Shown: in pieces, positions 1 to 22,485 of the stretch | Position numbering within the stretch: the stretch's first letter is position 1 | Layout of the letters: each line of letters opens with the position of its first letter | Virus record (IMG/VR): IMGVR_UViG_3300020581_000009 | Span: 1-22,610 of that record | Direction: 5' to 3' (one strand) | Source of the DNA: a virus | Taxonomy: Duplodnaviria; Heunggongvirae; Uroviricota; Caudoviricetes | Length of the DNA stretch: 22,610 bases | The notes under the pieces: model-generated | Database searches by the model: none | Told to the model about the DNA's origin: nothing | Seen by the model: the letters and a program-made list of their open reading frames with translations, nothing else | Program-made: the position numbers and the translations under genes

Positions 1-825
1 GCCGCCGCCGCCGCCGCCCGTATTAGCGGTTCCTGCGGTTCCCGGTGCCAATCCAGAACCCACGCCAGCGCCGCCGCCGCCCGCACCTCGCGCGCCCCCC
101 GTGCCAGAGCCGTTGAATGTAGCACCACCGCCGCCCCCAGCGTAAGTGACGGATGAGCCCGTGATTGTATTAGCGGTTCCCGCACCTCCCGCGCCACCGG
201 TCGAGTTGGCCGCAGCGCCGCCGGCTGAGGTTGCACCACCTCCGCCGCCGCACGGAAATAGCGTCCCGCCTCCCAAGCCAGCGCTACCGTTGCTTCCTTG
301 ATTTCCTGTTCCGCCGGCTTGAGAGCCTCCCGCACTTGCTCCGCCACCACCACCAGAGCCACCGGTCGCCCCGGCGGTATTCAATCCGCCGCCGCCGCCG
401 CCGCCATTGCCCGTGATCGAACCAAATACCGAGTTGGACCCGGCAGTACCCGTCCCTGAATTAGTGCTAACCGCTCCCGCGCCGCCGCCACCAACGGTTA
501 CTGTGGTGTTTCCGGATGACACCGAAAAACTGGCGTTGGTTTGATATCCGCCGGCTCCACCGCCACCGCAGGCCGCACCGGCGCCGCCGCCCACTACCAG
601 CACGTTCGCGGTGAATGGGGATGGACAATTGAGCGTTCCGCTCGCCGTGAATGTGATGATCGTGTTGCCGCCCGAGGTCGTGCGCGTCCCGCCCGTGCAA
701 GTTCCACCCCCACTCACGGCAGGAGTGCCAAGACCGCCATGCGTTGACGGCACTTGCGCGAGGCATTGGAGCCCCGCAAGCAACAGGCCGCAAGATAACA
801 AGTATCTGATTGCCGAATATCGCAT
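1..825 (-). CDS. Glycine-rich virion/fibre-like protein with N-terminal signal peptide (3' end runs off the window)
   Basis: Translated by hand from ATG at 825, 2 nt after the stop of the 537-aa gene: MRYSAIRYLLSCGLLLAGLQCLAQVPSTHGG...TIITFTASGTLNCPSPFTANVLVVGGGAGAACGGGGAGGY... The frame is open to base 1. The LVVGGGAG..GGGGAGG pattern is typical of phage Gly-rich domains. Missing from the ORF track because no stop lies in the window. Confidence 0.85.
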   Translation of the reverse strand, partial: MRYSAIRYLLSCGLLLAGLQCLAQVPSTHGGLGTPAVSGGGTCTGGTRTTSGGNTIITFTASGTLNCPSPFTANVLVVGGGAGAACGGGGAGGYQTNASFSVSSGNTTVTVGGGGAGAVSTNSGTGTAGSNSVFGSITGNGGGGGGGLNTAGATGGSGGGGGASAGGSQAGGTGNQGSNGSAGLGGGTLFPCGGGGGATSAGGAAANSTGGAGGAGTANTITGSSVTYAGGGGGATFNGSGTGGARGAGGGGAGVGSGLAPGTAGTANTGGGGGG

Positions 826-827
826 GA

Positions 828-2441
828 TCAAAGCTGCGCATACCAGATGTCGATATCCACACCACCGGTTCCGGTGCTGTTGATGCACAATCCATTAGCC
901 GATGTGTTCTTGAGCCCACTCCAGAAGTTTCCGCCCCAAGTCTCACCCGTATTAGCAGCCTCGGTTGCAACACCTGTGATCTGGGTATTTGCCGAGGAAC
1001 AGTTTGCGTTCGTCGATGCCGTGTTCTCCAGAAACCACGTCGCGACCCCAGCAGCGCGCGAACGCCACGAGCAAACATAGATGGTCTGCGATGCCACGCC
1101 CTGCACGGCAAGCGTATCGGTCGCAGTCGTGATGTGCTTAAAGACGTGGCTGTCGCACGAGATGAGACCGGCGATGTGCCCACCCGTGGCACCAGAAGCG
1201 TTAGCTCCGAGATAGACAGCATTCGCGGGCGGCGCGGCGGCCGTCGCAACCGCGCCGACAGCCGCGAGAGCCGTGGTCGGAGACGAGCCCGCGATGGTGG
1301 CAGTATCGGTGCCGACTGCAACACGTTGAGCGCCGGTCCCGACAGCACCGGTCCCCGTAAGGATCGCCACACTGTTGACCGAGGCGATGTCCTGCCGCAG
1401 CGCGCCGGTCGTCGTCAGAGACAGCGGATCGGTCTGCGCCGTGGTGTAGGACGGTGCGGCCGTGGTCACGGCGCCCATCACAAGCGAGCCGGTCTGCCCG
1501 CTCGTGGTCGAGGCTTGAGCAAGCCCAACGACTGGAGCGTTTACCTTCACGAGAAGATTCCCGGCGTTGTCCATCTGGCATGGCGAGCCGTTGCCCGGCG
1601 TGATAGTCGTGGGCGTGGTCTGAAACTGACAGCCAGCCTGTAGCCAGTTCGCAGGCGCCGCAACGTTCTGCCCGATCGCATCAAGCACGCCGCCGACATT
1701 GCCGGTGACGCGGATCGTCCCGATGTTCTTAGTGGTCTCGGCCGATAGCGTGGCGTTAACAGAAAATGCCGTGTTGTCTGACGCGATCGTGACGCGCGGC
1801 GATCCGGTGCCAGTAGTCCCGTTGCCCATCAGGGGTGTGACGCCGTTGATCTGCGAAACGTTGACGGACTGGTTCGCAGGCAGCGCCACACTATCGGGCG
1901 TGACCAGAAGTTTGGTCATTGAGGCAATGCCCTGAACGGTTATAACCCCAGAAGCTGCCGTTCCTGCTGTGCCGCTGCCAGTAACCAGCCATGGAGTTGT
2001 ATTAGCAGTATTTCCTGGCTGTACCGTCCATGTTCCTGATTGGGCGGCCTGGACAGCAAAAGTCCCCGTCCCAACAACGGTCGCATTGAGATTCGCGGCG
2101 GTGCTCTGCGTGACAGTATCAGTCCAAGACCCCGATTGCGTGGCGGCGACTGTACCTGTTATGGTCGTTGAGGCAAGAGAAACAGGAATAGCCGTTCCAC
2201 TCGCAATGCCCTGCACTGTGATAACATTGGCGTTTGCAGTCCCGGCCGTCCCATAGATCGCCGTTCCAGTAGTACTCCCTAGGACAACCATAGACGATTC
2301 AACGCCACTTCCAACGTCAACAGACCGCATCGTTACTCCAGATCCAGGAGTCAAGATGACAGTATTATCAGCCGCATAAGACGGCATTGTGCCCACAATG
2401 AGCAAAAATGCTGCAAAGATACGGCTAAGACGCTGGATCAT
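828..2441 (-). CDS. Ala/Thr/Gly-rich fibre-like protein (537 aa) with signal peptide, internal repeats and a C-terminal beta-rich domain
   Basis: RBS-like AAGGA upstream. N-terminus MIQRLSRIFAAFLLIVGTMPSYA|ADN. Repeats GTAGTAxxxVITVQGIAS (x2) and QSG(S/T)WT (x2). Six Cys. Confidence 0.85.
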   Translation of the reverse strand: MIQRLSRIFAAFLLIVGTMPSYAADNTVILTPGSGVTMRSVDVGSGVESSMVVLGSTTGTAIYGTAGTANANVITVQGIASGTAIPVSLASTTITGTVAATQSGSWTDTVTQSTAANLNATVVGTGTFAVQAAQSGTWTVQPGNTANTTPWLVTGSGTAGTAASGVITVQGIASMTKLLVTPDSVALPANQSVNVSQINGVTPLMGNGTTGTGSPRVTIASDNTAFSVNATLSAETTKNIGTIRVTGNVGGVLDAIGQNVAAPANWLQAGCQFQTTPTTITPGNGSPCQMDNAGNLLVKVNAPVVGLAQASTTSGQTGSLVMGAVTTAAPSYTTAQTDPLSLTTTGALRQDIASVNSVAILTGTGAVGTGAQRVAVGTDTATIAGSSPTTALAAVGAVATAAAPPANAVYLGANASGATGGHIAGLISCDSHVFKHITTATDTLAVQGVASQTIYVCSWRSRAAGVATWFLENTASTNANCSSANTQITGVATEAANTGETWGGNFWSGLKNTSANGLCINSTGTGGVDIDIWYAQL

Positions 2442-2445
2442 AGAC

Positions 2446-2661
2446 TTAGTCCTTCGGAGGTGGTGGCTTGTTCTGTTCGTTGAGTTGAGAAATCAGCTTT
2501 TGCAGGAGAGGATTCGCATCCTTCCATGGCATTTCGGCCAACTTGTTGAGGATGACGTTCGCCTCCTCAGTGGTCACGCTGAGCGTGTGATTCTTTGGAG
2601 TCTCTTGGGCTTGCGCAGAGGAGATGAATGCAAGAGCGATCAAGGCATATACATGCTTCAT
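2446..2661 (-). CDS. Small secreted protein (71 aa)
   Basis: AGGA RBS; MKHVYALIALAFISSAQA|QET signal peptide; fits the operon tightly. Confidence 0.75.
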   Translation of the reverse strand: MKHVYALIALAFISSAQAQETPKNHTLSVTTEEANVILNKLAEMPWKDANPLLQKLISQLNEQNKPPPPKD

Positions 2662-2672
2662 GTCTTATCCTT

Positions 2673-2861
2673 TCAGAAGATGACTGCTATGTATTGACTG
2701 TTGCAGGCTTGGGTGAAGTCAAGACTATTTGAACATACTGGAGGAGGACCGCTGCCGCCAGCAATCTGCCCAGCGCCTGTTTGTGTCAGTTGAGCGCTGG
2801 ATTGAAGCGTGGCCATAGAAATTATCAAAGCAGCGATAGCCAGAGACTTAAAACTGAGCAT
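2673..2861 (-). CDS. Small secreted protein (62 aa) with a C-terminal Cys pair
   Basis: MLSFKSLAIAALIISMATLQSSA|QLT signal peptide; ends CSNSLDFTQACNSQYIAVIF; overlaps the upstream gene by 14 nt. Confidence 0.7.
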   Translation of the reverse strand: MLSFKSLAIAALIISMATLQSSAQLTQTGAGQIAGGSGPPPVCSNSLDFTQACNSQYIAVIF

Positions 2862-3243
2862 ACGACAGGCTGCCTGGATAACCTACGTTCGCTGAAGTGA
2901 CGGCACAAAGAGAATTACCAGGAGGAATAATCCACACAGGACCAACCCCCGTTCCTTTTGTGAATCCAACCTGAGCAATAAGGGCATAGTTACCAGTCAC
3001 ATTTTGCTGCCCCGTACCACACGTAGCACCAGTGCCATAAACGAATTGAATGCTCCCAGTCCCCGCCGCTATAACATCAACAGCAGTAACATAGATTCTC
3101 TGACCGGAAACCCCTAGAATCAGCCTAGTTGTTGTAGCTGTTGATATCGTAATTGGAATCGAAACAGTTGCAGTCGGCTTAATCGTCGTCTGCGCAAAAG
3201 ATGGGGTCGATAGAATGAGAAGTGGCGCTACAATCTTCCACAT
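2848..3243 (-). CDS. Secreted beta-rich protein (131 aa), paralog of the C-terminal domain of 828..2441
   Basis: MWKIVAPLLILSTPSFA|QTT. ISTATTTRLILGVSGQRIYV...AAG...C...SLC...SYAQF aligns with ITTATDTLAVQGVASQTIYV...AAG...C...GLC...WYAQL. Confidence 0.85.
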   Translation of the reverse strand: MWKIVAPLLILSTPSFAQTTIKPTATVSIPITISTATTTRLILGVSGQRIYVTAVDVIAAGTGSIQFVYGTGATCGTGQQNVTGNYALIAQVGFTKGTGVGPVWIIPPGNSLCAVTSANVGYPGSLSYAQF

Positions 3244-3905
3244 TAGCCGATCCCCGATTGCAACATACGGAACCTAACCTGACCGGTCCCGGAGTTAATC
3301 AAGAGACGGATCATGGAGATTGGCTCCATATAGGAACCGTCAATATTCGCAGACTGAGCGACCACTAGAGGATGATTGAACGCCAGCGGTGAAGTCACCC
3401 CAGCCAGAAGTTGATTCGGATCGTCGTAGGTATGCTGAACGGTGAAATTCGCCGCCCCAGAGACTAACTCAACCGCAAATCCTATATTGATATCCTGAAC
3501 GTGCCAGTTCACCTGTTGCCACGAAGATGACCCAAATCCGTTAGTCCCCGCAATAACCGTCGAGGCGACTGATGCGCTTGGGGTGATACTTGTTACCGTG
3601 ACGAAGTCCAAATTTGACTGCGCGGCACCACCATTCGACCCGACAAACGTGTCAGTAATCACGCTACCAGTAGAGTTGGTCCCGACCACGACCCAATTGA
3701 TGCCGCTGTCATCCCCGCCAGATGTAAGAATTACCCTTCGGCCTACAGCAGTGTTGGTCGATGACTTGGTATCTATCGTAGCAACACCAGACGTAACGGC
3801 AGACCCATTAAGAGTCAGTTTCGCCGTAGCCGGGCTCTGACTCAAAGCAATGTTGTTCGAGCTAGAGGCCGCCATCGTCTTGTTGAAAACAATCGGGATA
3901 CCCAT
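3243..3905 (-). CDS. Putative virion structural protein (220 aa)
   Basis: Ser/Thr/Gly-rich with beta-strand patterning; 1-nt overlaps with both neighbours; no signal peptide. Confidence 0.8.
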   Translation of the reverse strand: MGIPIVFNKTMAASSSNNIALSQSPATAKLTLNGSAVTSGVATIDTKSSTNTAVGRRVILTSGGDDSGINWVVVGTNSTGSVITDTFVGSNGGAAQSNLDFVTVTSITPSASVASTVIAGTNGFGSSSWQQVNWHVQDINIGFAVELVSGAANFTVQHTYDDPNQLLAGVTSPLAFNHPLVVAQSANIDGSYMEPISMIRLLINSGTGQVRFRMLQSGIG

Positions 3906-5788: not shown

Positions 5789-6787
5789 TCATGTCGCCGT
5801 CGCCGGCTCCGTTGTGGCCATAGACGCCACATATTGCGTAATCAGACTGACATTCCACAGAGTATGCGGTATGTCATTTTCGTCTATCAGAAGAATGCAC
5901 TTGTCACAATCTTGGATATTTACTGTCCTGCCGTTAATGGCCGGTATTTTCGTATCTAATTCCTCATTGTACGAGGTCAGTTTTCCGAAGTTCTTTAACT
6001 CGCTAAGCAGCCTTGCAACCCTAGCCTCTGCTATCGTACTATACTGACCGAGATCGATAGTCTCTTTTTCTATGTGTATTCTTGCTCGGAACCATCCACC
6101 GTGTGGATATACGCCTTGATATCCGGTCCTACTTCTTCTGGTGGCGCTCCTAGAATTGTGGCTATTCTCACTCTTTGTGGCGTCTCGTAGATTCAGCCAC
6201 CTATTGTCATTTCTAACCCTATTGATGTGATCTATCTCAAATTCAGGCCAATCTCCCGTCATATAAAACCAAGCCAGGATATGCTCTAGGTACTTTTTGT
6301 AGTCGATCCCTATGCTGCGATAGCCCTTGCCGTGAGTGGTGCCGGCTCTATCGCCTATATTAGCCACCGAAGAGGCCACCCTCCACGTAAACCAACCCGT
6401 GTCAGGCTCGTAGTAAAGAAGCTCCTTCAGCCGACCCAGCGTCAGGGCCGTGGACTTGATATCTTCTGGATCCTTATCATGAACCAGAATATTGGAGACC
6501 CTATTATCGGTCTTATTCCCATTCAGGTACTTTATGCGTCCTTTGGGCCACTCGCCATTGACATAAAGCAGCGCCAGTAGACCAGAGTTGTAATTGACCG
6601 CGTCTACCGAGATCATGACGTAGCCAAGTGAACTTATCCTGCCGGCACCAACCTTACCGTGCTTACGATCTTCCGAGGTCCACGTTCTGGCCTGCTGGCG
6701 TCTCGTAAAGATGCCGAGTTCGGCATCGTAGTGAAACAGTTCCTTCAACCTATCTTGTGTCGGCCTTGGCTTCGTATTCGTATCCAT
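5789..6787 (-). CDS. Free-standing homing endonuclease: two HNH-type domains plus an AP2-like domain (332 aa)
   Basis: Two copies of L..RLKEL..Y....G.FT.R; the second has an intact HILAW...EIDHINRVRNDNRWLNLR; followed by GYQGVY...WFRARI...DLGQY..IAEA (AP2-like). Confidence 0.9.
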   Translation of the reverse strand: MDTNTKPRPTQDRLKELFHYDAELGIFTRRQQARTWTSEDRKHGKVGAGRISSLGYVMISVDAVNYNSGLLALLYVNGEWPKGRIKYLNGNKTDNRVSNILVHDKDPEDIKSTALTLGRLKELLYYEPDTGWFTWRVASSVANIGDRAGTTHGKGYRSIGIDYKKYLEHILAWFYMTGDWPEFEIDHINRVRNDNRWLNLRDATKSENSHNSRSATRRSRTGYQGVYPHGGWFRARIHIEKETIDLGQYSTIAEARVARLLSELKNFGKLTSYNEELDTKIPAINGRTVNIQDCDKCILLIDENDIPHTLWNVSLITQYVASMATTEPATAT

Positions 6788-6852: not shown

Positions 6853-7779
6853 TTAGCTGGTCGGTGCGGAGCCCCAGATGCTACGGGGATCGTTGTAATT
6901 AAAGCTATATCTCTCCCATCCCTTCACCATGAGATTGTCCGTGGTAAAATCGACCTGCATGTCGATCTCGAACGGCTCGCGCTCCAGGTAGAGGAGGCCC
7001 GGCTGGTCGGTCTTGAGGTACCACGGAAATGCGGAGGTGAAGAACACGTCCTTCACGTACTCGCTGATGCCGCCGGCAACAGTTGGGAGGACGTTGATGT
7101 CGTTGTTCGCCGTACCTGGGCGAAGCTCTGTCCTGAGAAGGCGGAGGGCGGTCGGCTCGTTGTTCGGGTGAATAACGAGCGTCTTTCCCGTGGCCATCAT
7201 GCGGAGGCCGGCGTTGTCGTAGAAGCCGGTCTGGATCGAGATCATCCCGTTCAGCAGGGATGCTTCGTTCAGGTCTACGTCTGTCGTAGGACGGTTTGCC
7301 CACGTAGTCGGACCGGATCCGCCAGGAGGCAGTGGGTGGGCAGTGCTCAGGAGAGCAACGCCGTCGCCGCCGACTGTCGTGTCGTAGGTCGTGCTGTTGT
7401 TGAACACGGCCGCAGCGTAGATTTCCTTGGTCTGGGCGAAAGAACGCTGGAGACCAAGGTTTGACGGGCGGAACTGCGCCTTGTAGAGGTTGTCCGCGAT
7501 CGTGTTGCGGGTGATAGCGTAACCCAAACCGATTCCAGTGTGAAGCTGGTTGTAGACCCACGCCTCACCGGAGGAGTTGTCGAAGATCGTCTGACCACCG
7601 TCCGACTTAAGCTGGGCGAGTGGCAGGAACCGCATGGAAGCAGTACGCTCCTGCGCCATCTCGGACTTGCCTTGGTCGAACAGCTTTGGCCAGATCGACG
7701 GCCACTGCTTGTATTCACCTGTGACACCACGGAGACCCGGCAGCAGGAGGTCCCGAATGGCTGCGACGTTAATTGCCAT
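6853..7779 (-). CDS. Major capsid protein (HK97 fold, Mu gpT-like family; 308 aa)
   Basis: LLLPGLRGV, GYAITRNTIADNLY, GGDGVALLSTAHPL, DLNEASL, DFTTDNLMVKGWERYSF..DPRSIWGS motifs; position downstream of scaffold and cement genes. Confidence 0.9.
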   Translation of the reverse strand: MAINVAAIRDLLLPGLRGVTGEYKQWPSIWPKLFDQGKSEMAQERTASMRFLPLAQLKSDGGQTIFDNSSGEAWVYNQLHTGIGLGYAITRNTIADNLYKAQFRPSNLGLQRSFAQTKEIYAAAVFNNSTTYDTTVGGDGVALLSTAHPLPPGGSGPTTWANRPTTDVDLNEASLLNGMISIQTGFYDNAGLRMMATGKTLVIHPNNEPTALRLLRTELRPGTANNDINVLPTVAGGISEYVKDVFFTSAFPWYLKTDQPGLLYLEREPFEIDMQVDFTTDNLMVKGWERYSFNYNDPRSIWGSAPTS

Positions 7780-9071: not shown

Positions 9072-9100
9072 TTGACATAGTTATAAATCGGGTGCATATT
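9072..9100 (+). promoter_or_regulatory. Transposase promoter overlapping the left IR of the outer IS
   Basis: TTGACA (inside the IR)-N17-CATATT. The inner IS has the same layout: TTGACA 10760-10765, N17, TGTATT 10783-10788. Confidence 0.65.
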
Positions 9101-9125
9101 GGCGGCCATAGAGAGGTTGCCCGCC

Positions 9126-10031
9126 ATGAATGTAGATCTGACAGACCCGATTTTTCACGATGAAAACAAGGCTCGCGAGCACCTTGAGGCGCAGCGCTGG
9201 CCCGATGGCCCGTTCTGCCCGCATTGCGGCGAGGTCGATAACATTTGCCGATTACATGGCAAGTCCCACCGCCCCGGCCTGTTCCAGTGCAACTCATGCC
9301 TTCAGGCATTTACGGTTATGGTCGGCTCGGTTTTCGAGTCGTCGCATATCCCGCTGACCAAGTGGGTACTGGCCTTTCACCTGATGGCCGCGAGCAAGAA
9401 GGGTATGAGTGCCCTACAGCTACAGCGGATGCTCGGCCTTGGCTCCTACCGGTCGGCTTGGTTCATGTGCCACCGTATCCGTGAGGCCATGAAGCCGGCC
9501 AAGCCAAGCCCGTTGGGTGGCCCTAAGAAGGTTGTCGAGGCAGACGAGACCTTCATCGGCGGCAAAGCCAAGAACCGCGCCTACGCCAAGAAGCCCCCAA
9601 AGAAAGAGGCGGTCTTTGCGTTGGTCGAGCGGGACGGCGAAAGCCGCTCATTCCATGTCGCCAACGTGAAGGCAAAGACCTTGCGCGAAGCCATCGTCAA
9701 GACGGCAGACCGTAAGTCATTCCTGATGACCGACGAATCGCCGTCCTACGAAACGGTTGGCGCAGAGTTTGCCCTTCACGCCACGGTCAACCATTCGCAG
9801 AATGAATACGTGCGCGCCGACTGGCACACGAACACGGTGGAAAGCCGTTTCGCTCTGATGAAGCGCGCCGTCTATGGGACGCACCATTCAGTCAGTCAGG
9901 CCCATCTGCACCGCTATTTAGTCGAATGGGACTACAAGTGGAACACCCGCAAGATGAAGGATGGGGAACGTGCCGCGCTTGCCGTCTATGGTGCCGGTGG
10001 CAAGCGTCTCACGTACCGCAATCCTAACTGA
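9126..10031 (+). CDS. IS1595-family transposase (Zn ribbon + ISXO2-like DDE domain)
   Basis: CPHC...CNSC Zn ribbon, EADETFIGG, LMTDES, HTNTVESRF, HLHRYL.EWDYKWN. ATG 9126 follows a GAGAGG RBS; the track's start at 9099 is probably too early. Confidence 0.95.
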   Translation: MNVDLTDPIFHDENKAREHLEAQRWPDGPFCPHCGEVDNICRLHGKSHRPGLFQCNSCLQAFTVMVGSVFESSHIPLTKWVLAFHLMAASKKGMSALQLQRMLGLGSYRSAWFMCHRIREAMKPAKPSPLGGPKKVVEADETFIGGKAKNRAYAKKPPKKEAVFALVERDGESRSFHVANVKAKTLREAIVKTADRKSFLMTDESPSYETVGAEFALHATVNHSQNEYVRADWHTNTVESRFALMKRAVYGTHHSVSQAHLHRYLVEWDYKWNTRKMKDGERAALAVYGAGGKRLTYRNPN

Positions 10032-10099
10032 GCCCAAGACAAATCAAGCAGAAGGCAAAGCGCTTTCTGCGGTGGAGAAAACGCAAGGGTCGGGCATGA
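10028..10099 (+). CDS. Conserved basic micro-ORF (23 aa, CTG start) coupled to the transposase stop
   Basis: LSPRQIKQKAKRFLRWRKRKGRA; a homolog at 11756..11845 is conserved through synonymous substitutions. Confidence 0.5.
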   Translation: MSPRQIKQKAKRFLRWRKRKGRA

Positions 10100-10112
10100 C
10101 GCTCGGCCCTTG
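10084..10112 (+). terminator. Hairpin/terminator after the transposase-micro-ORF unit
   Basis: CAAGGGTCGGGC-ATGAC-GCTCGGCCCTTG, a 12-bp stem with two G.U pairs on the + strand, followed by TTTCGTT. Confidence 0.65.
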
Positions 10113-10157
10113 TTTCGTTATGCTAAGTCTATAAGTTGGCTTCGGAGTTGCATAAAA

Positions 10158-10472
10158 ATGACGATCAAGACTTATGTAGCGCTCGATGATGGGACGACAG
10201 TTTTGGTCGAAACCATCGAGCACGAAGGAGACCTCTGGCTTGTGCCAAAATGGATCGCCACGTCATTCCCAAACATGCACAAGCCAGCCCGAATGATTCG
10301 GATGCCGAAAGATCGGCTCCAGGACCTCGGCCATGATTTTCTCGCAAGCGGGATTCATGCACATAAACTAGACGGTCAAGTGTCCAAAGTTTTGTTGGAC
10401 GTGGCCAACCCGTTGCAATCAGACCAGCCGTTCGACGTTCTAGAGGCTCCGGAGTTATTGATTCGTCGATGA
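10158..10472 (+). CDS. IS passenger, hypothetical protein (104 aa)
   Basis: GGAG RBS before ATG 10158; globular-looking sequence (ETIEHEGDLWLVPKW...KPARMIR). Confidence 0.65.
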   Translation: MTIKTYVALDDGTTVLVETIEHEGDLWLVPKWIATSFPNMHKPARMIRMPKDRLQDLGHDFLASGIHAHKLDGQVSKVLLDVANPLQSDQPFDVLEAPELLIRR

Positions 10473-10809
10473 ATTGTTGATTTCGAATCACTCTGTGTAC
10501 CATTTCTTCCTTCCTCAATTCCGAAAACCTCTAATTGCCCATCCCAAAGCCGAACCGAACGCCAGCACAAGCACGGGAGGGATCAGGGCAATTTTGATGG
10601 CTGTTTGAATGGCGATCTTTCTAGAGCCGAGAAGTTCAAGTTGTAAGTCAGATATAATCGTGCCCTGCGGCGGGTCAGGGGGCGGTAGGCTTAAAACCGC
10701 TACCGTACCAACCGCACCAATCCAAAGTACGGAGAGGACAATCCACCCCAATTATATCGTTGACATCACAAGCTCTATATGCTGTATTGAGGCCATCACA
10801 CAGGGATCG

Positions 10810-11763
10810 ATGGTCATGGACACGTTTTCAGCCCCGCATTTCCACAATGACGAAGCTGCCAGAGCCTATCTGGAAGCCCTGCGTTGGCCCGATGGTCCGG
10901 TCTGCCCGCATTGTGGCTCGGTCAATCACGCCTATGTGATTAATCCTGCCGGCACCTATCGCTGCGCAGAAAAGGAATGCCGGGGGAACTTCTCGGTCAC
11001 AATGAATTCTCCCATGGAGCGCAGCCATATCGCTCTGCACAAGTGGGTCCAAGCATTCCATCTAATGGCGTCCAGCAAGAAAGGCGTCTCAGCCCACCAA
11101 TTGCACCGGACTCTGGAAATCACGTATCGCTCGGCATGGTTCATGGCGCACCGCATTCGCGAGTGTATGCGATCGGGCGGTCTCGCCCCGATGGGTGGCG
11201 ATGGCCAGATCGTTGAGGCCGATGAAACATATTATGGCCCGGTCGATAACCCGCGTACCGAAACGACCATCGGTCGGCCGTTCACGAAGCGTGGCAAAAC
11301 CGGTCCAGCCAATAAGCGCCCGATCCTCGCGCTGGTCGAGCGCGGCGGCAAGGTTCGCACGTTCCATGTGCCGGTTGCCGATCAGAAAACGGTCGAGAAG
11401 ATCGTCACGGAAAACATCGCTCGCGAGTCACGGCTGCACACCGATGAAAGCCGCCTCTATTTCAACGCGGCCGATCATTTTGCCGCGCACAAGACCGTGA
11501 AGCACACCGCGAAGGAATACGCGCGGCGCGAAGACGGAGAAAACATCCACTGCAATTCTGCGGAAGGTTACTTCTCGATTTTCAAGCGCGGCATGAAGGG
11601 CATCTATCAGCACTGCGACGAAAAGCATTTACACAGATATTTGTCGGAATTCGATTTCCGCTACAATCACCGAGTCCGGCTCGGATACGACGATGGGGAA
11701 CGTGCAGCCATGGCGGTCAAGAACGCGACCGGCAAGCGGCTGACGTACCGGCTCACTGACTAA
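10810..11763 (+). CDS. IS1595-family transposase (second, divergent copy)
   Basis: CPHC...CAEKEC, EADETYYG, LHTDES, HCNSAEGYFSIFKRG, HLHRYLSEFDFRYN. True start is ATG 10810 or 10816, because the track's 10609 start lies outside the IR. Confidence 0.95.
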   Translation: MVMDTFSAPHFHNDEAARAYLEALRWPDGPVCPHCGSVNHAYVINPAGTYRCAEKECRGNFSVTMNSPMERSHIALHKWVQAFHLMASSKKGVSAHQLHRTLEITYRSAWFMAHRIRECMRSGGLAPMGGDGQIVEADETYYGPVDNPRTETTIGRPFTKRGKTGPANKRPILALVERGGKVRTFHVPVADQKTVEKIVTENIARESRLHTDESRLYFNAADHFAAHKTVKHTAKEYARREDGENIHCNSAEGYFSIFKRGMKGIYQHCDEKHLHRYLSEFDFRYNHRVRLGYDDGERAAMAVKNATGKRLTYRLTD

Positions 11764-20037: not shown

Positions 20038-22485
20038 TTACCTCTTTGAAACTCCAGCGGAAGGCTTGGGCTTTGCCTTTTCCAGCGCTATAGCGTGTTC
20101 ACGATCCAATTCGCCCTGATTCGCCTCGTGGGCGTGTCCAAGTGCGGTCGTCAATAGTTCATGGCGCCGATCATGTGCTTGCTGATTGGCGTCATGGGTG
20201 TGTCCCAGCCCCATTTTGATTGCATCGTGACGATTAGACAAGGCCTTCATCCTGAACTGGTGTACCCGATCAGCCTGCCGGTTCTGTTGATCGGCCTGGA
20301 GTGCTTGGCCCTTCTGCTGGGAATCCGAATTATGAATGACCATTTCCCTCGCCAATCCAAGGTGTGCAACCTGCTCCTCGGACTGAAGCTTCTGCGTCTG
20401 GTAGTCGAGAGTCTGTCCAGCCAGCGCAGTCTTGGCCTGTGCCTCAGTAGATTTTGTCTGGCTGTCCGCGAGTCTCGCCTGCGCCGTCAGAAGATCGGCC
20501 TGCGCACTCATTGCCTCTGGGTTAGGCGGTACGGTTCCAGGTTCCGGCGGCGGCTTGAAGTATGATTCCGCGTCATCAACACCGAGAACATGCATGGCGT
20601 GCAGATCGACCTTGTCTTGGTCGATGTTAGGATTACCCTGCTGAATCTGCTTCAAGGCAGAAGTTTTAAGATACCGCTCGGTCTGCGAAGCCGTGTTAGG
20701 ATCGGCCTTCGGAATCAACTCGCAGTCATTTAAGGCGGCAACGAACATCGCATTTCGTTTGTCGTCAGCTTGATCCTGCTGGACAACGATCGGACTCGAC
20801 CCGATTGCATCAGTCAGAGCCTTCAGAACTTTGCTCTTTTTATTGTGCCTCCACAGCGCAGATGGATCCTCGGTAAGAAGCTCTTTAAGCATTGAAAATT
20901 CCTGACCCTGAGCGGTATGAAGCCTCTTGTGCACTGCACTCATAAGCTTTGTGGCTTGCTCGATCAGGGCCAGGGTCGTTCCTACGGGGGCGTCTTGTTT
21001 ACCTTCACCGATCTGGAGTTCGGCCGTACCACCGACCCTCTGGGCGGTAGTCGTAATGCTGTCGATAAGCTGAATGAAAACCGCCGATGGATCCTTGTAC
21101 GGCAGCGGCATAACCGAGGCGCGTATATCATTTCCTACGGTATCAATCGGCATTCCTCCCCCAGGGGGAATCCTGAACTGATTCGTCAATTGCTTTGCGA
21201 GCGACTTCAGATACAAGAATCCAGGGAAGTTCGCGAACATACCGGCGTCAATCATCAGACGCCAAGCAGCCGTTACTGCCTTTGTGGCATTTCCGAGAAT
21301 GTTAAGGAGACCAATTCCATAGAAGCCCAATCCGGGAACGAAGATATACGCCACAATCCTGTTACGCGGCATACATAAATCGTCGTCTTCTCGCCAGTTA
21401 CGGCGGATTTCAAGGATTTTTCGAGCCTCTTTGTCGATAGTAACCTTGTACGGGAGCGGGAGTCCTGTGAGCTTTCCCTTGTCATCTTCATGCTCGAATC
21501 CAGGCACCTCGATTTCGCAGTAGCACTCGTAAAGCTCTCTGTCCTGGTCAGAAGGCTCAATGTAACTTGGTGGCGCAATACCCTGCACCTGATCGATCTT
21601 CTGGTCGATTGGATTCTTGAGCGCTGGCATCCCCTGTACTGGGAGATTCGTGTCTCGATAGGCGCCAAGCATCTGCATCCGCTTAAGGACGCTCGGCCGC
21701 ATCATGATTCGGTGGGTTACTCGTCCGGCGCCGTCAATGTCAGTCGCAGCATTCGAGACGATTAGATCCTTGGCATCAATGGAAGCCAGGACAGGCCTTC
21801 GCTTAATCGGGCAGTGATACCCCTTCTTGAAGGCTATACCGGAGAATCCCAGCATAAGAAGGAGCCTATCCGTGTCGGGATAGTATTCCTTCGCCACAGA
21901 CGTAAGGTAGTGGTTTAGATCCTTCTCAAGAGCCATCGCCAGCGTCGTGGCGAGTTCGTCCCCCTGTCCATCATTCTTGACCTTGACAGGACCATCGGCG
22001 GGGAGAAGTTCACCACGGGCATTGGCCTGGAACCTAAGGGTTGCCTCCAAGAGGAGAGGATGATCGACTGTCGAGACGCCCTCTGCTGGAGCCGCCCCGG
22101 TCGCAGCCGCGCCCCTTGGAGTCTTTATCTCCAGTCCAAGCAGCGAAATGCCGTTGCTCATGTTCTGGAGCCAAGCGCTTCGGCTTTGGTCGTCTTGCTC
22201 GATCCCGAGAAGGATACGCTCGGAAATCGTGCTTAACTCTGATTCGCTCAGAGACTCGGCTAGATTGTCCTCGAATTCGCTTTCCTTCCGCTCTGATTGC
22301 GGAGGCCCAACGGTAATCTGCACATCCCCGTCAGGGAGAGTAATCTGCGTGGTTCCAGTCGTCTCGTCGTACGACTGCGCAACGTCTCCGCCATCGGTGA
22401 TGACCGTCACATCGCCAGTGTCAACCGGCGACGGAGTATCATGGACTCGGTAACTGTTGGGGCTCAACGGGTAGATATTGGACAC
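20038..22485 (-). CDS. Portal protein with a long C-terminal coiled coil (815 aa)
   Basis: VDHPLLLEATLRFQA, YYPDTDRLL..LGFSG.AFKK, LGFYGIGLL.ILG, SAVHKRLH.AQ.QEF; size and position fit a podovirus-type portal. Confidence 0.9.
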   Translation of the reverse strand: MSNIYPLSPNSYRVHDTPSPVDTGDVTVITDGGDVAQSYDETTGTTQITLPDGDVQITVGPPQSERKESEFEDNLAESLSESELSTISERILLGIEQDDQSRSAWLQNMSNGISLLGLEIKTPRGAAATGAAPAEGVSTVDHPLLLEATLRFQANARGELLPADGPVKVKNDGQGDELATTLAMALEKDLNHYLTSVAKEYYPDTDRLLLMLGFSGIAFKKGYHCPIKRRPVLASIDAKDLIVSNAATDIDGAGRVTHRIMMRPSVLKRMQMLGAYRDTNLPVQGMPALKNPIDQKIDQVQGIAPPSYIEPSDQDRELYECYCEIEVPGFEHEDDKGKLTGLPLPYKVTIDKEARKILEIRRNWREDDDLCMPRNRIVAYIFVPGLGFYGIGLLNILGNATKAVTAAWRLMIDAGMFANFPGFLYLKSLAKQLTNQFRIPPGGGMPIDTVGNDIRASVMPLPYKDPSAVFIQLIDSITTTAQRVGGTAELQIGEGKQDAPVGTTLALIEQATKLMSAVHKRLHTAQGQEFSMLKELLTEDPSALWRHNKKSKVLKALTDAIGSSPIVVQQDQADDKRNAMFVAALNDCELIPKADPNTASQTERYLKTSALKQIQQGNPNIDQDKVDLHAMHVLGVDDAESYFKPPPEPGTVPPNPEAMSAQADLLTAQARLADSQTKSTEAQAKTALAGQTLDYQTQKLQSEEQVAHLGLAREMVIHNSDSQQKGQALQADQQNRQADRVHQFRMKALSNRHDAIKMGLGHTHDANQQAHDRRHELLTTALGHAHEANQGELDREHAIALEKAKPKPSAGVSKR

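What the first reader, a model, noticed from the sequence alone, without database searches (positions are those of the whole stretch)
1..3243. Five consecutive virion-like genes all carry Sec-type signal peptides, four with paired cysteines
Seen: the 131, 62, 71, 537 and >275 aa proteins all begin with a basic residue, a hydrophobic core and an Ala cleavage site (SFA|Q, SSA|Q, AQA|Q, SYA|A, CLA|Q). Their mature parts have 2, 2, 0, 6 and at least 4 Cys. The two upstream structural genes (220 and 433 aa) have no signal peptide. Known: tailed-phage virions assemble in the cytoplasm, so fibre-like and Gly-rich proteins normally lack export signals. Inference: these parts are exported, disulfide-bonded in the periplasm, and either added to virions at or after lysis or displayed on the lysogen surface.
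Basis: partly seen in the sequence, partly recalled or inferred. Interest (0 to 1): 0.8.

Follow-up and report, generated by a model that had tools for sequence, protein, structure and literature searches.

The report
Phage fibre proteins carrying export signals
Five neighbouring late genes of an uncultured soil phage encode fibre-type proteins that carry conserved secretion signals and paired cysteines, so they almost certainly fold in the host periplasm, apart from the virus particle built in the cytoplasm; I found no description of this for tailed phages.

Summary
Observation confirmed. The 131, 62, 71, 537 and >275 aa proteins (A-E, minus strand, 1-3243) each begin with a basic n-region, a 9-14 residue hydrophobic core and an AxA-type cleavage site. 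Their mature parts hold 2, 2, 0, 6 and at least 4 Cys.

The leaders are conserved:
- A family: 115 of 119 homologues.
- D family: 94-99 of 119.
- C family: 107-121 of 129.

All 94 leader-bearing D homologues have an even Cys count.

D is an ordinary phage fibre with a leader added. Residues 24-120 are 43% identical to the first residues of a leaderless, Cys-free 742-aa fibre. The closest lineage relative has a leaderless fibre at the same position.

The genes are translationally coupled. In a 110-kb copy of this phage they lie between the capsid and head-tail adaptor genes. The host is alphaproteobacterial (GcrA).

Export and periplasmic disulfide formation are well supported (about 0.9). The destination is open:
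- joining the particle after the holin step (about 0.45);
- a XepA-like exported late protein that stays off the virion (about 0.35).

Display on lysogens is unlikely.

This scan has noted the same pattern before on other DNA and on another record of this phage. My literature searches found no published description.

The parts
2848..3243 (-). Gene A, 131 aa. Sec-type leader (codons 1-17, nt 3193-3243) followed by a small 8-stranded jelly-roll with one invariant Cys pair (C75, C113) and a conserved C-terminus YA[IQ]F. It is a stand-alone copy of D's C-terminal domain.
   Evidence: 31% identity to D 437-537, E 1e-5, both Cys aligned; 115 of 119 homologues have a leader; 113 of 115 have exactly 2 Cys; invariant columns; model pLDDT 91.
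2673..2861 (-). Gene B, 62 aa. Leader (codons 1-23, nt 2793-2861) followed by a mature peptide of about 39 aa with one Cys pair. It overlaps the end of A by 14 nt.
   Evidence: conserved next to A- and D-like genes in L007, L020 and L002. B-like 59-aa leader-bearing ORF in L213.
2446..2661 (-). Gene C, 71 aa. Leader (codons 1-18, nt 2608-2661) followed by a small Cys-free protein with the motif PWKD(A/V)NPL and a Pro-rich tail.
   Evidence: 149 clusters; 107 (strict test) to 121 (lenient test) of 129 small full-length members carry a leader; syntenic in L002.
828..2441 (-). Gene D, 537 aa. It has a leader (codons 1-23, nt 2373-2441), a canonical fibre N-terminal module (residues 24-57, nt 2271-2372), shaft repeats (to about residue 400) and a conserved jelly-roll C-terminal domain (residues about 405-537, nt 831-1229). 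There are three inferred Cys pairs: 271-288, 429-457 and 481-519.
1..825 (-). Gene E, first 275 of 299 codons. Leader (codons 1-23, nt 757-825) followed by a glycine-rich domain (Pfam Gly_rich_2) with at least 4 Cys. The gene runs off the contig start.
   Evidence: PF21722, 34.2 bits against a cut-off of 24.3; phrog_2295, 1e-34; 299 aa in the 110-kb copy; E-like neighbours share the mature N-terminus Q-x-x-(S/T)-(T/S)-H-(G/A)-G.
3243..3905 (-). 220-aa protein without a leader. Its stop codon overlaps the start of A. Its C-terminal half is the conserved upstream neighbour of the fibre genes in both leaderless and leader-bearing loci. It is a candidate particle-side partner; this is an inference only.

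Best explanation
A-E are late-operon proteins of the phage fibre type that have acquired cleavable Sec leaders.

Proposed steps:
1. They are made together with the head and neck proteins and translocated across the inner membrane of an alphaproteobacterial host.
2. Signal peptidase I trims them, leaving mature ends QTT, QLT, QET, ADN and QVP.
3. The Dsb system oxidises them in the periplasm.

D is a canonical fibre: an N-terminal module, shaft repeats and a jelly-roll tip. A leader and three Cys pairs have been added to it. A is a free copy of its tip domain. E is an exported member of the mostly cytoplasmic Gly_rich_2 family.

Basis of each step:
- Supported by conservation here: the leaders, the Cys pairing, and homology to leaderless fibres.
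- Shown directly by the sequence: tight gene coupling.
- From a gene table without DNA: the position between the capsid and adaptor genes.
- Inferred: these proteins first meet the cytoplasm-built particle when the holin opens the inner membrane, and then dock as fibres through D's preserved N-terminal module.

I give the export and disulfide part about 0.9 and the docking step about 0.45. The figure below is for the whole statement.
For: Leaders:
- All five proteins pass both rule sets, and the two upstream proteins fail.
- Conservation: 115 of 119 in the A family, 94-99 of 119 in the D family, 107-121 of 129 in the C family.
- E-like neighbours begin their conserved sequence exactly at the predicted cleavage site.

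Disulfides:
- 94 of 94 leader-bearing D homologues have an even Cys count, and none has fewer than 2. Leaderless D-like fibres are Cys-poor (0.2-0.4 against 1.0-1.5 Cys per 100 aa; p 3e-6 and 1e-5).
- The A-family Cys pair is invariant.
- Cys columns co-occur in pairs.
- D's C271 and C288 replace A and L in a leaderless homologue.

Fibre identity:
- Shaft repeats are shared with leaderless proteins of 900-2400 aa.
- A profile of the 34 mature N-terminal residues hits only two kinds of place among 3295 ORFs: positions just after leaders, and the extreme N-termini of leaderless fibres L049 and L174.
- L049 residues 2-99 are 43% identical to D 24-120.
- L108, whose capsid protein is 55% identical, has a leaderless D-like fibre with one Cys at the same position.
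- A 220-aa-like gene precedes the fibres in both kinds of locus.

Operon:
- Overlaps or gaps of 2-11 nt.
- No promoter or terminator signal above chance.
- The cluster lies between Phage_capsid_4 and SU10_adaptor in the 110-kb copy.

Clustering: genes beside leader-bearing D-likes carry leaders in 26% of cases, against 7% elsewhere (p 4e-7).

Host: diderm, shown by GcrA and MT-A70 genes.
Against: - No experiment shows export, processing or presence in virions.
- SignalP was not available; my test is rule-based.
- No mechanism is known by which periplasmic proteins join tailed-phage particles.
- D's C-terminal domain is its most conserved part, unlike typical receptor-binding tips.
- Leader-bearing cassettes sit at varied places. 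One lies between the small and large terminase genes (L007). Two lie in chromosomal contexts that do not look like phage (L168, L182). This suggests they can work without a particle.
- A leaderless spike-like candidate (433 aa) exists just upstream, so the phage need not depend on the exported set for adsorption. I judged it spike-like by eye from its composition; Pfam, PHROGs, NCBIfam and PDB sequence searches found nothing for it.
- PBSX XepA is a precedent for an exported late protein that is absent from particles.
Confidence: 0.45

Rival explanations
1. Exported late accessory proteins that never enter the particle, like PBSX XepA. A-E are secreted to the periplasm late in infection and act on the envelope or on surface glycans. 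Possible roles are helping lysis or release, masking receptors on debris, or binding or cutting polysaccharide together with the two lyase genes that follow E.
For: XepA is made late, exported beyond the membrane and absent from PBSX particles. It also has a stand-alone paralogue of its C-terminal jelly-roll, YomS (PMC6834076). That parallels the D and A pair.

XepA and YomS are among the top five fold matches for both D's C-terminal domain and A (Z 8.0-8.1).

Other points:
- Cassette position varies; the L007 cassette lies between the terminase genes.
- The cassette is adjacent to lysis genes in L002, L006 and L088.
- D/E-like cassettes occur in chromosomal contexts without evident phage genes.
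- D's C-terminal domain is highly conserved.
- Two Polysacc_lyase genes follow E.
Against: - The fold matches lie in the range the tool calls common (typical best Z 7-8). No sequence or profile similarity to any solved chain was found.
- D keeps a long shaft and the intact N-terminal module of leaderless fibres. A free periplasmic factor would not obviously need these.
- D occupies the position of a leaderless fibre in the nearest relative.
Confidence: 0.35
2. Lysogenic-conversion proteins displayed on the lysogen surface as adhesins, or acting in superinfection exclusion.
For: Known leader-bearing phage genes near the tail-fibre genes, such as lambda lom, Cor and T5 Llp, act in this way (own knowledge). 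A Wzy_C-type membrane protein sits two genes upstream of the A-like gene in L213.
Against: - The genes are translationally coupled to the late structural genes, with no promoter or terminator signal above chance.
- There is no lipobox, autotransporter or other outer-membrane targeting feature.
- The models are soluble jelly-rolls.
- I saw no integrase or other sign of lysogeny in this window.
Confidence: 0.07
3. The hydrophobic N-termini are not cleaved export signals. They would instead be uncleaved membrane anchors, or artefacts of start-codon choice.
For: Only a rule-based predictor was used. E's ATG lacks a clear ribosome-binding site.
Against: - The hydrophobic cores are 9-14 residues, too short for a membrane span, and each is followed by an AxA-type site.
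- Sequence conservation in the A, D and E families starts at the predicted cleavage site while the leaders themselves vary.
- The even-Cys rule holds in 94 of 94 cases.
- The public gene caller chose the same starts for A, C, D and E.
Confidence: 0.03

Closest known systems
Ordinary (cytoplasmic) side or tail fibres of tailed phages, represented here by leaderless metagenomic fibres (L049 742 aa, L174 730 aa, L082 1636 aa, L108 485 aa)
   Same: They share the shaft repeats. L049 and L174 also share D's N-terminal module: L049 residues 2-99 are 43% identical to D 24-120, and L174 matches the 34-residue N-terminal profile. L049 and L108 have the same upstream 220-aa-like neighbour gene, and L108 has the same operon position.
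   Different: They have no leader and few Cys (0-4; none in L049), and they start directly with the module that D exposes only after leader cleavage. D adds three Cys pairs and a conserved jelly-roll C-terminal domain.
XepA (PBSX exported protein) and YomS (SPbeta) of Bacillus subtilis prophages, PDB 6i56 and 6i5o (PMC6834076)
   Same: [quoted passage not shown] It is built of jelly-roll domains and has a stand-alone paralogue of its C-terminal domain. Both are among the top fold matches here (Z 8.0-8.1).
   Different: - The host is monoderm.
- They form pentameric discs and have no fibre shaft.
- I found no sequence similarity.
- The fold match lies within the common range.
- No Cys-pair pattern was noted in the passages I read.
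Bdellovibrio bacteriovorus MAT (mosaic adhesive trimer) fibres (PMC10769870)
   Same: These are phage-fibre-like proteins with a signal peptide, a conserved domain directly after it, mosaic tips and tip disulfides. The Bd2133 tip appears among the fold matches at Z 6.3-6.5.
   Different: They are cellular genes of a predator, used on its own surface or vesicle, and not genes in a phage structural operon. No sequence relation was found here.
Leader-bearing phage genes near the fibre genes (lambda Lom, Cor, T5 Llp)
   Same: They are exported phage proteins encoded beside receptor-binding genes (own knowledge).
   Different: They are single small outer-membrane proteins or lipoproteins. Lom is expressed from the prophage, while T5 is strictly lytic. 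None is homologous to a fibre, and none is part of a coupled multi-gene set.

Membership tests
Sec-type (signal peptidase I) signal peptide | Positively charged n-region | tested here: met
   MWK, MLSFK, MK(H), MIQRLSR and MRYSAIR; net charge +1 or +2.
Sec-type (signal peptidase I) signal peptide | Uncharged hydrophobic core of about 7-15 residues, shorter than a membrane span | tested here: met
   Cores of 9-14 residues, with a mean Kyte-Doolittle value of 2.5-3.3 over the best 8 residues.
Sec-type (signal peptidase I) signal peptide | Small residues at -3 and -1 (AxA rule); no lipobox Cys at +1; no twin arginine | tested here: met
   SFA|Q, SSA|Q, AQA|Q, SYA|A and CLA|Q. E's early LLSC lies only 12 residues from the start, too early for a lipobox.
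Sec-type (signal peptidase I) signal peptide | Trained-predictor score (SignalP) and an experimentally processed N-terminus | not testable with these tools
   No SignalP or proteomics was available. Conservation of the leaders in homologues was used instead.
Phage fibre proteins with this shaft repeat (no Pfam family; D family, more than 3000 homologues) | Significant sequence similarity of the shaft to long leaderless phage fibre-like proteins | tested here: met
   E 5e-23 to L108's 485-aa protein and E 2e-34 to P0046. 269 matching stretches in viral contigs.
Phage fibre proteins with this shaft repeat (no Pfam family; D family, more than 3000 homologues) | N-terminal module shared with leaderless fibres | tested here: met
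   Profile hits at the extreme N-termini of L049 (3.7e-4) and L174 (2.9e-3) among 3295 ORFs. 43% identity over about 97 residues.
Phage fibre proteins with this shaft repeat (no Pfam family; D family, more than 3000 homologues) | Trimeric fibre that is present in the virion | not testable with these tools
   The monomer model is confident only for residues 410-537. The phage is uncultured, so no proteomics exists.
Pfam Gly_rich_2 (PF21722) | Score above the gathering cut-off | tested here: met
   E scores 34.2 bits against a cut-off of 24.3, over residues 66-275. Only 4 of 120 family hits carry a leader, so E is an atypical exported member.
XepA/YomS jelly-roll family | Fold match clearly above background, or sequence or profile similarity | tested here: inconclusive
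   Z 8.0-8.1, rmsd 3.3-3.6 A over 98-99 residues, ranked third to fifth of 48,161 chains but with no gap to unrelated jelly-rolls. The profile search of PDB sequences found nothing.
Outer-membrane beta-barrel proteins (considered because of the C-terminal YAQF/YAQL) | Beta-barrel of at least 8 membrane strands, with a C-terminal signal of alternating hydrophobic residues ending in Phe | tested here: not met
   Mature A is about 114 aa and models confidently as a soluble jelly-roll sandwich (pLDDT 91). The residues before the terminal Phe do not alternate as in a beta-signal.

The most novel reading that the evidence does not exclude
Tailed phages of diderm soil bacteria assemble in two compartments. 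Heads and tails form in the cytoplasm. The host-recognition fibres (and, according to an earlier scan note that I could not check, the glycan lyases encoded next to them) are exported by Sec, disulfide-bonded in the periplasm, and dock onto particles only after the holin opens the inner membrane.
Probability: 0.4. Interest if true: 0.9.

Novelty: new variant of a known kind. Interest (0 to 1): 0.77.

Why it matters
Textbook tailed-phage assembly takes place entirely in the cytoplasm, and virion proteins are typically Cys-poor and lack leaders. Here a canonical fibre has gained a secretion leader and paired cysteines. The same is seen in thousands of metagenomic homologues across several phage lineages.

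There are two main possibilities:
- Host-recognition parts mature in the periplasm and join the particle at lysis. That would be a new assembly route. It would bear on phage engineering, on recombinant production of receptor-binding proteins (which would need oxidising folding conditions) and on host-range prediction.
- Phages widely deploy fibre-derived exported proteins against their host's envelope. That would be a large, unstudied class of late accessory functions.

Both can be tested directly in a cultured carrier, Synechococcus phage Yong-M4-211.

Tried and rejected
Family and similarity searches
- Pfam, PHROGs and NCBIfam gave nothing for A-D or for the 220 and 433 aa proteins.
- tblastn against cultured phages found only a 38-residue stretch for D and nothing for E.
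- B against E: no similarity, so the idea that B is a fragment of an E-type N-terminus was dropped.
- Plain BLAST did not align D's N-terminus with leaderless fibres. A short profile did.

Structure
- Foldseek against the PDB found nothing at E <= 0.001.
- VIA-align gave only generic small jelly-rolls at Z <= 8.9 with no gap to unrelated chains.
- PDB sequence and profile searches found nothing.
- Complex prediction with the 220-aa C-terminal half (3 copies) and D 24-120 (3 copies) gave no verdict: score 0.00 and controls not run. This counts neither for nor against binding.

Ideas rejected
- Outer-membrane barrel, suggested by the C-terminal YAQF: the models are soluble jelly-rolls.
- Lipoprotein or Tat signals: absent in the five proteins.
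- Host flank of a prophage: the 110-kb copy has phage genes on both sides.
- Moron with its own promoter and terminator: none found above chance, and the genes are coupled.

Not obtained
- DNA of the 110-kb contig could not be fetched.

Literature
- Searches for leader-bearing phage fibres or periplasmic virion parts found no description.
- There is no paper on Yong-M4-211 or Ssp-JY42 in the library, and nothing on PF21722.
Full report
**Setting**

The window is the first 22.6 kb of an 86.6-kb IMG/VR phage record. On the minus strand it carries these genes:
- a portal gene (20038-22485);
- a major head protein gene (6853-7779);
- an HNH endonuclease gene (5789-6787);
- a 433-aa gene;
- two small genes (91 and 78 aa);
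- a 220-aa gene;
- the five genes of the finding.

The contig starts inside the last of these, E.

The same phage exists as a 109,962-bp metagenome contig. Its gene table runs: capsid (Phage_capsid_4), HNH, 433, 85, 78, 220, A, C, D, E (299 aa), a 682-aa Polysacc_lyase, 111, a 717-aa Polysacc_lyase, SU10_adaptor. The cluster therefore lies inside the structural operon, between the capsid and head-tail adaptor genes, and is not host flank.

GcrA and MT-A70 genes elsewhere in the genome point to an alphaproteobacterial host, which is diderm. The restriction of GcrA to that class and its phages is established knowledge.

**The observation**

Mature Cys counts are 2, 2, 0, 6 and at least 4.

No trained signal-peptide predictor was available, so I wrote two rule-based tests. 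They score n-region charge, an uncharged hydrophobic core, and a -3/-1 site.
- All five proteins pass both tests. The 220 and 433 aa proteins fail.
- The cores are 9-14 residues long, too short for membrane spans.
- There is no lipobox and no twin arginine.
- In the whole genome about 7 of 160 other ORFs pass at their first start, one of them a clear false positive on SSB.
- In 889 control ORFs of related loci the rate is 7%.

Five passes in a row is therefore not chance.

**Conservation of the leaders**

- D has more than 3000 database homologues. Of the best 119, 99 (lenient test) or 94 (strict test) carry a leader.
- A has 119 close homologues. 115 pass the strict test, and the other four look like leaders by eye. 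113 of the 115 have exactly two Cys, and the C-terminus is always YA[IQ]F. Both Cys are invariant columns.
- C has 149 cluster representatives. 107 to 121 of the 129 small full-length members carry a leader, and the family is Cys-free.
- B is conserved next to A- or D-like genes in four independent loci.
- E belongs to Pfam Gly_rich_2. That family is mostly leaderless (4 of 120 hits carry a leader). However, E's nearest hits and the E-like genes beside D-like genes do have leaders, and their conserved sequence starts exactly at the predicted cleavage site (Q-x-x-S/T-T/S-H-G/A-G).

**Disulfides**

All 94 leader-bearing D homologues have an even number of Cys in the mature part, and none has fewer than two. 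Leaderless D-like proteins are Cys-poor, with a median of 0.2-0.4 Cys per 100 residues against 1.0-1.5 (p 3e-6 and 1e-5).

In the D alignment, Cys 429/457 and 481/519 co-occur almost perfectly, and Cys 288 never occurs without Cys 271. Cys 271 and 288 stand where a leaderless homologue has A and L.

This is the signature of proteins that fold in an oxidising compartment.

**What D is**

D's shaft (about residues 60-400) is clearly homologous to leaderless proteins of 500-2400 aa in viral contigs and prophages of many phyla.

I built a profile from only the 34 mature N-terminal residues of leader-bearing D-likes. Among 3295 ORFs of the fetched loci it hits two kinds of place:
- positions directly after leaders;
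- the extreme N-termini of leaderless fibres, namely L049 (742 aa, no Cys, 3.7e-4) and L174 (730 aa, 2.9e-3).

L049 residues 2-99 are 43% identical to D 24-120. The leader is therefore an addition in front of an intact, canonical fibre N-terminus. Cleavage regenerates the end that cytoplasmic fibres have after Met removal.

The nearest lineage relative in hand is L108 (capsid protein 55% identical, portal 38%). It has a leaderless D-like fibre with one Cys at the same position.

A gene like the C-terminal half of the 220-aa protein precedes the fibre genes in both kinds of locus:
- leaderless loci: L049 and L108;
- leader-bearing loci: this window, and L052, where eight leader-bearing ORFs follow it.

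**The small domains**

A is a stand-alone copy of D's C-terminal domain (E 1e-5, both Cys aligned). That domain is the most conserved part of the D family.

Models show a compact 8-stranded jelly-roll: pLDDT 80-94 for D 410-537 and 91 for A.

Fold searches give only generic matches:
- HFTV1 and STIV turret proteins, YomS, XepA and Ena pilus subunits, at Z 8-8.9. That is the range the tool calls common, and there is no gap to unrelated chains.
- Among predicted viral structures, 96 proteins match A's model at E <= 0.001. Most of the 50 listed are small phage proteins of about 105-120 aa, the size of A without its leader. A few of them are annotated as virion proteins.

**Recurrence**

Genes beside leader-bearing D-likes carry leaders in 26% of cases (38 of 145). 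The rate is 7% beside leaderless D-likes and 7% elsewhere (p 4e-7).

Leader-bearing blocks containing A-, B-, D- and E-like genes occur in several phage types:
- two podovirus contigs with a T7-type portal, a GP7-type capsid protein and the Bbp16 decoration protein (L212, L213), where a 526-aa pectate-lyase-like protein has a leader and 12 Cys;
- a P22-portal phage, between the terminase genes (L007);
- a holin-proximal block (L002);
- the cultured temperate Synechococcus siphophage Yong-M4-211, where an A-like gene (57% identical) and a 786-aa protein, both with leaders, follow the tail genes.

**Operon structure**

- The 220-aa gene's stop codon overlaps A's start.
- A and B overlap by 14 nt.
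- The other gaps are 2-11 nt.
- Promoter- and terminator-like sites do not exceed the shuffled expectation.

The five genes are therefore expressed with the late structural genes.

**Interpretation**

Export by Sec, leader cleavage and periplasmic disulfide formation are well supported by inference (about 0.9). What happens next is not shown.

For docking onto the particle after the holin opens the inner membrane:
- D keeps the whole architecture and N-terminal module of leaderless fibres;
- it holds their operon position;
- it keeps their upstream neighbour.

Fibres can join fibreless particles after mixing, as in T4 in-vitro complementation (established knowledge).

For a XepA-like role off the virion:
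- XepA is made late, exported and absent from PBSX particles, and it has a stand-alone paralogue, YomS (PMC6834076);
- cassette position varies;
- two D/E-like cassettes lie in chromosomal contexts that do not look like phage;
- the conserved rather than variable C-terminal domain is unlike a host-range tip;
- polysaccharide lyase genes lie next door.

Surface display in lysogens is unlikely, given the coupling to the late operon and the absence of any outer-membrane targeting feature.

**Literature and earlier notes**

Full-text searches found no description of leader-bearing fibres or periplasmic virion parts in tailed phages. The nearest published analogues are XepA/YomS and the Bdellovibrio MAT fibres. 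The MAT fibres are cellular proteins with a signal peptide, a conserved domain directly after it, and disulfide-bearing tips.

This scan has noted the same pattern in at least ten other windows. One of those notes concerns another record of this phage and states that eight genes, the two lyases among them, carry leaders.

Noticed in passing
window 5789-6787 (-): An HNH_3 homing-type endonuclease gene (phrog_99, 3.5e-73) sits between the major capsid gene and the 433-aa gene. The 110-kb copy of the phage also has a GIY-YIG endonuclease just after the adaptor gene.
   Followed up: no
G000 64809-65282 (-), outside the window (L214 810-1283): A 157-aa protein has a twin-arginine-like leader (MTTRRKVLALIG...AAKA|AA) and no Pfam match. 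It is the only other convincing export signal in the genome that is not a membrane protein.
   Followed up: partly
L168 8423-12414 and L182 9601-11321 (Acidobacteriota MAG contigs): D-like and E- or A-like leader-bearing genes, each preceded by a small ~100-aa beta-rich ORF, lie among ordinary-looking cellular genes such as a cold-shock protein, with no evident phage genes nearby. They may be remnants, or free-standing cellular uses of the cassette.
   Followed up: partly
L007 6417-13997: A run of about eight ORFs between the small and large terminase genes of a P22-portal phage, all but one (80 aa) carrying an export leader. The first has a Tat-type leader (MNRRGFLLGLTSALAAPAIVHA). This is an unusual place for fibre-like genes.
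   Followed up: partly
L213 7391-8446: A Wzy_C (O-antigen ligase/polymerase-like) membrane protein gene lies inside a podovirus structural block, two genes upstream of the A-like gene.
   Followed up: no
G000 84163-86610 (-), contig end (L215 6664-9111): A large ORF, cut by the contig end, has a Pro/Ala-rich N-terminal part and a C-terminal InPase domain (PF18823, 1.4e-46). It lies upstream of two ORFs without a Pfam match and then a GH25 endolysin gene.
   Followed up: no
window 2446-2661 (-) and P0366-P0514: The C family is a widespread, unnamed family of ~75-110 aa exported proteins with a conserved core (T-x-T-x-x-E-A-x-x-x-L-N-x-L-x-E-x-P-W-K-D-V-N-P-L) and a Pro-rich tail. A few hits are internal repeats in 600-900 aa proteins.
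   Followed up: partly
window 9099-11763 (+): Two IS1595-family transposase genes (310 and 384 aa) interrupt the head-gene region. Other notes of this scan have already covered them.
   Followed up: no
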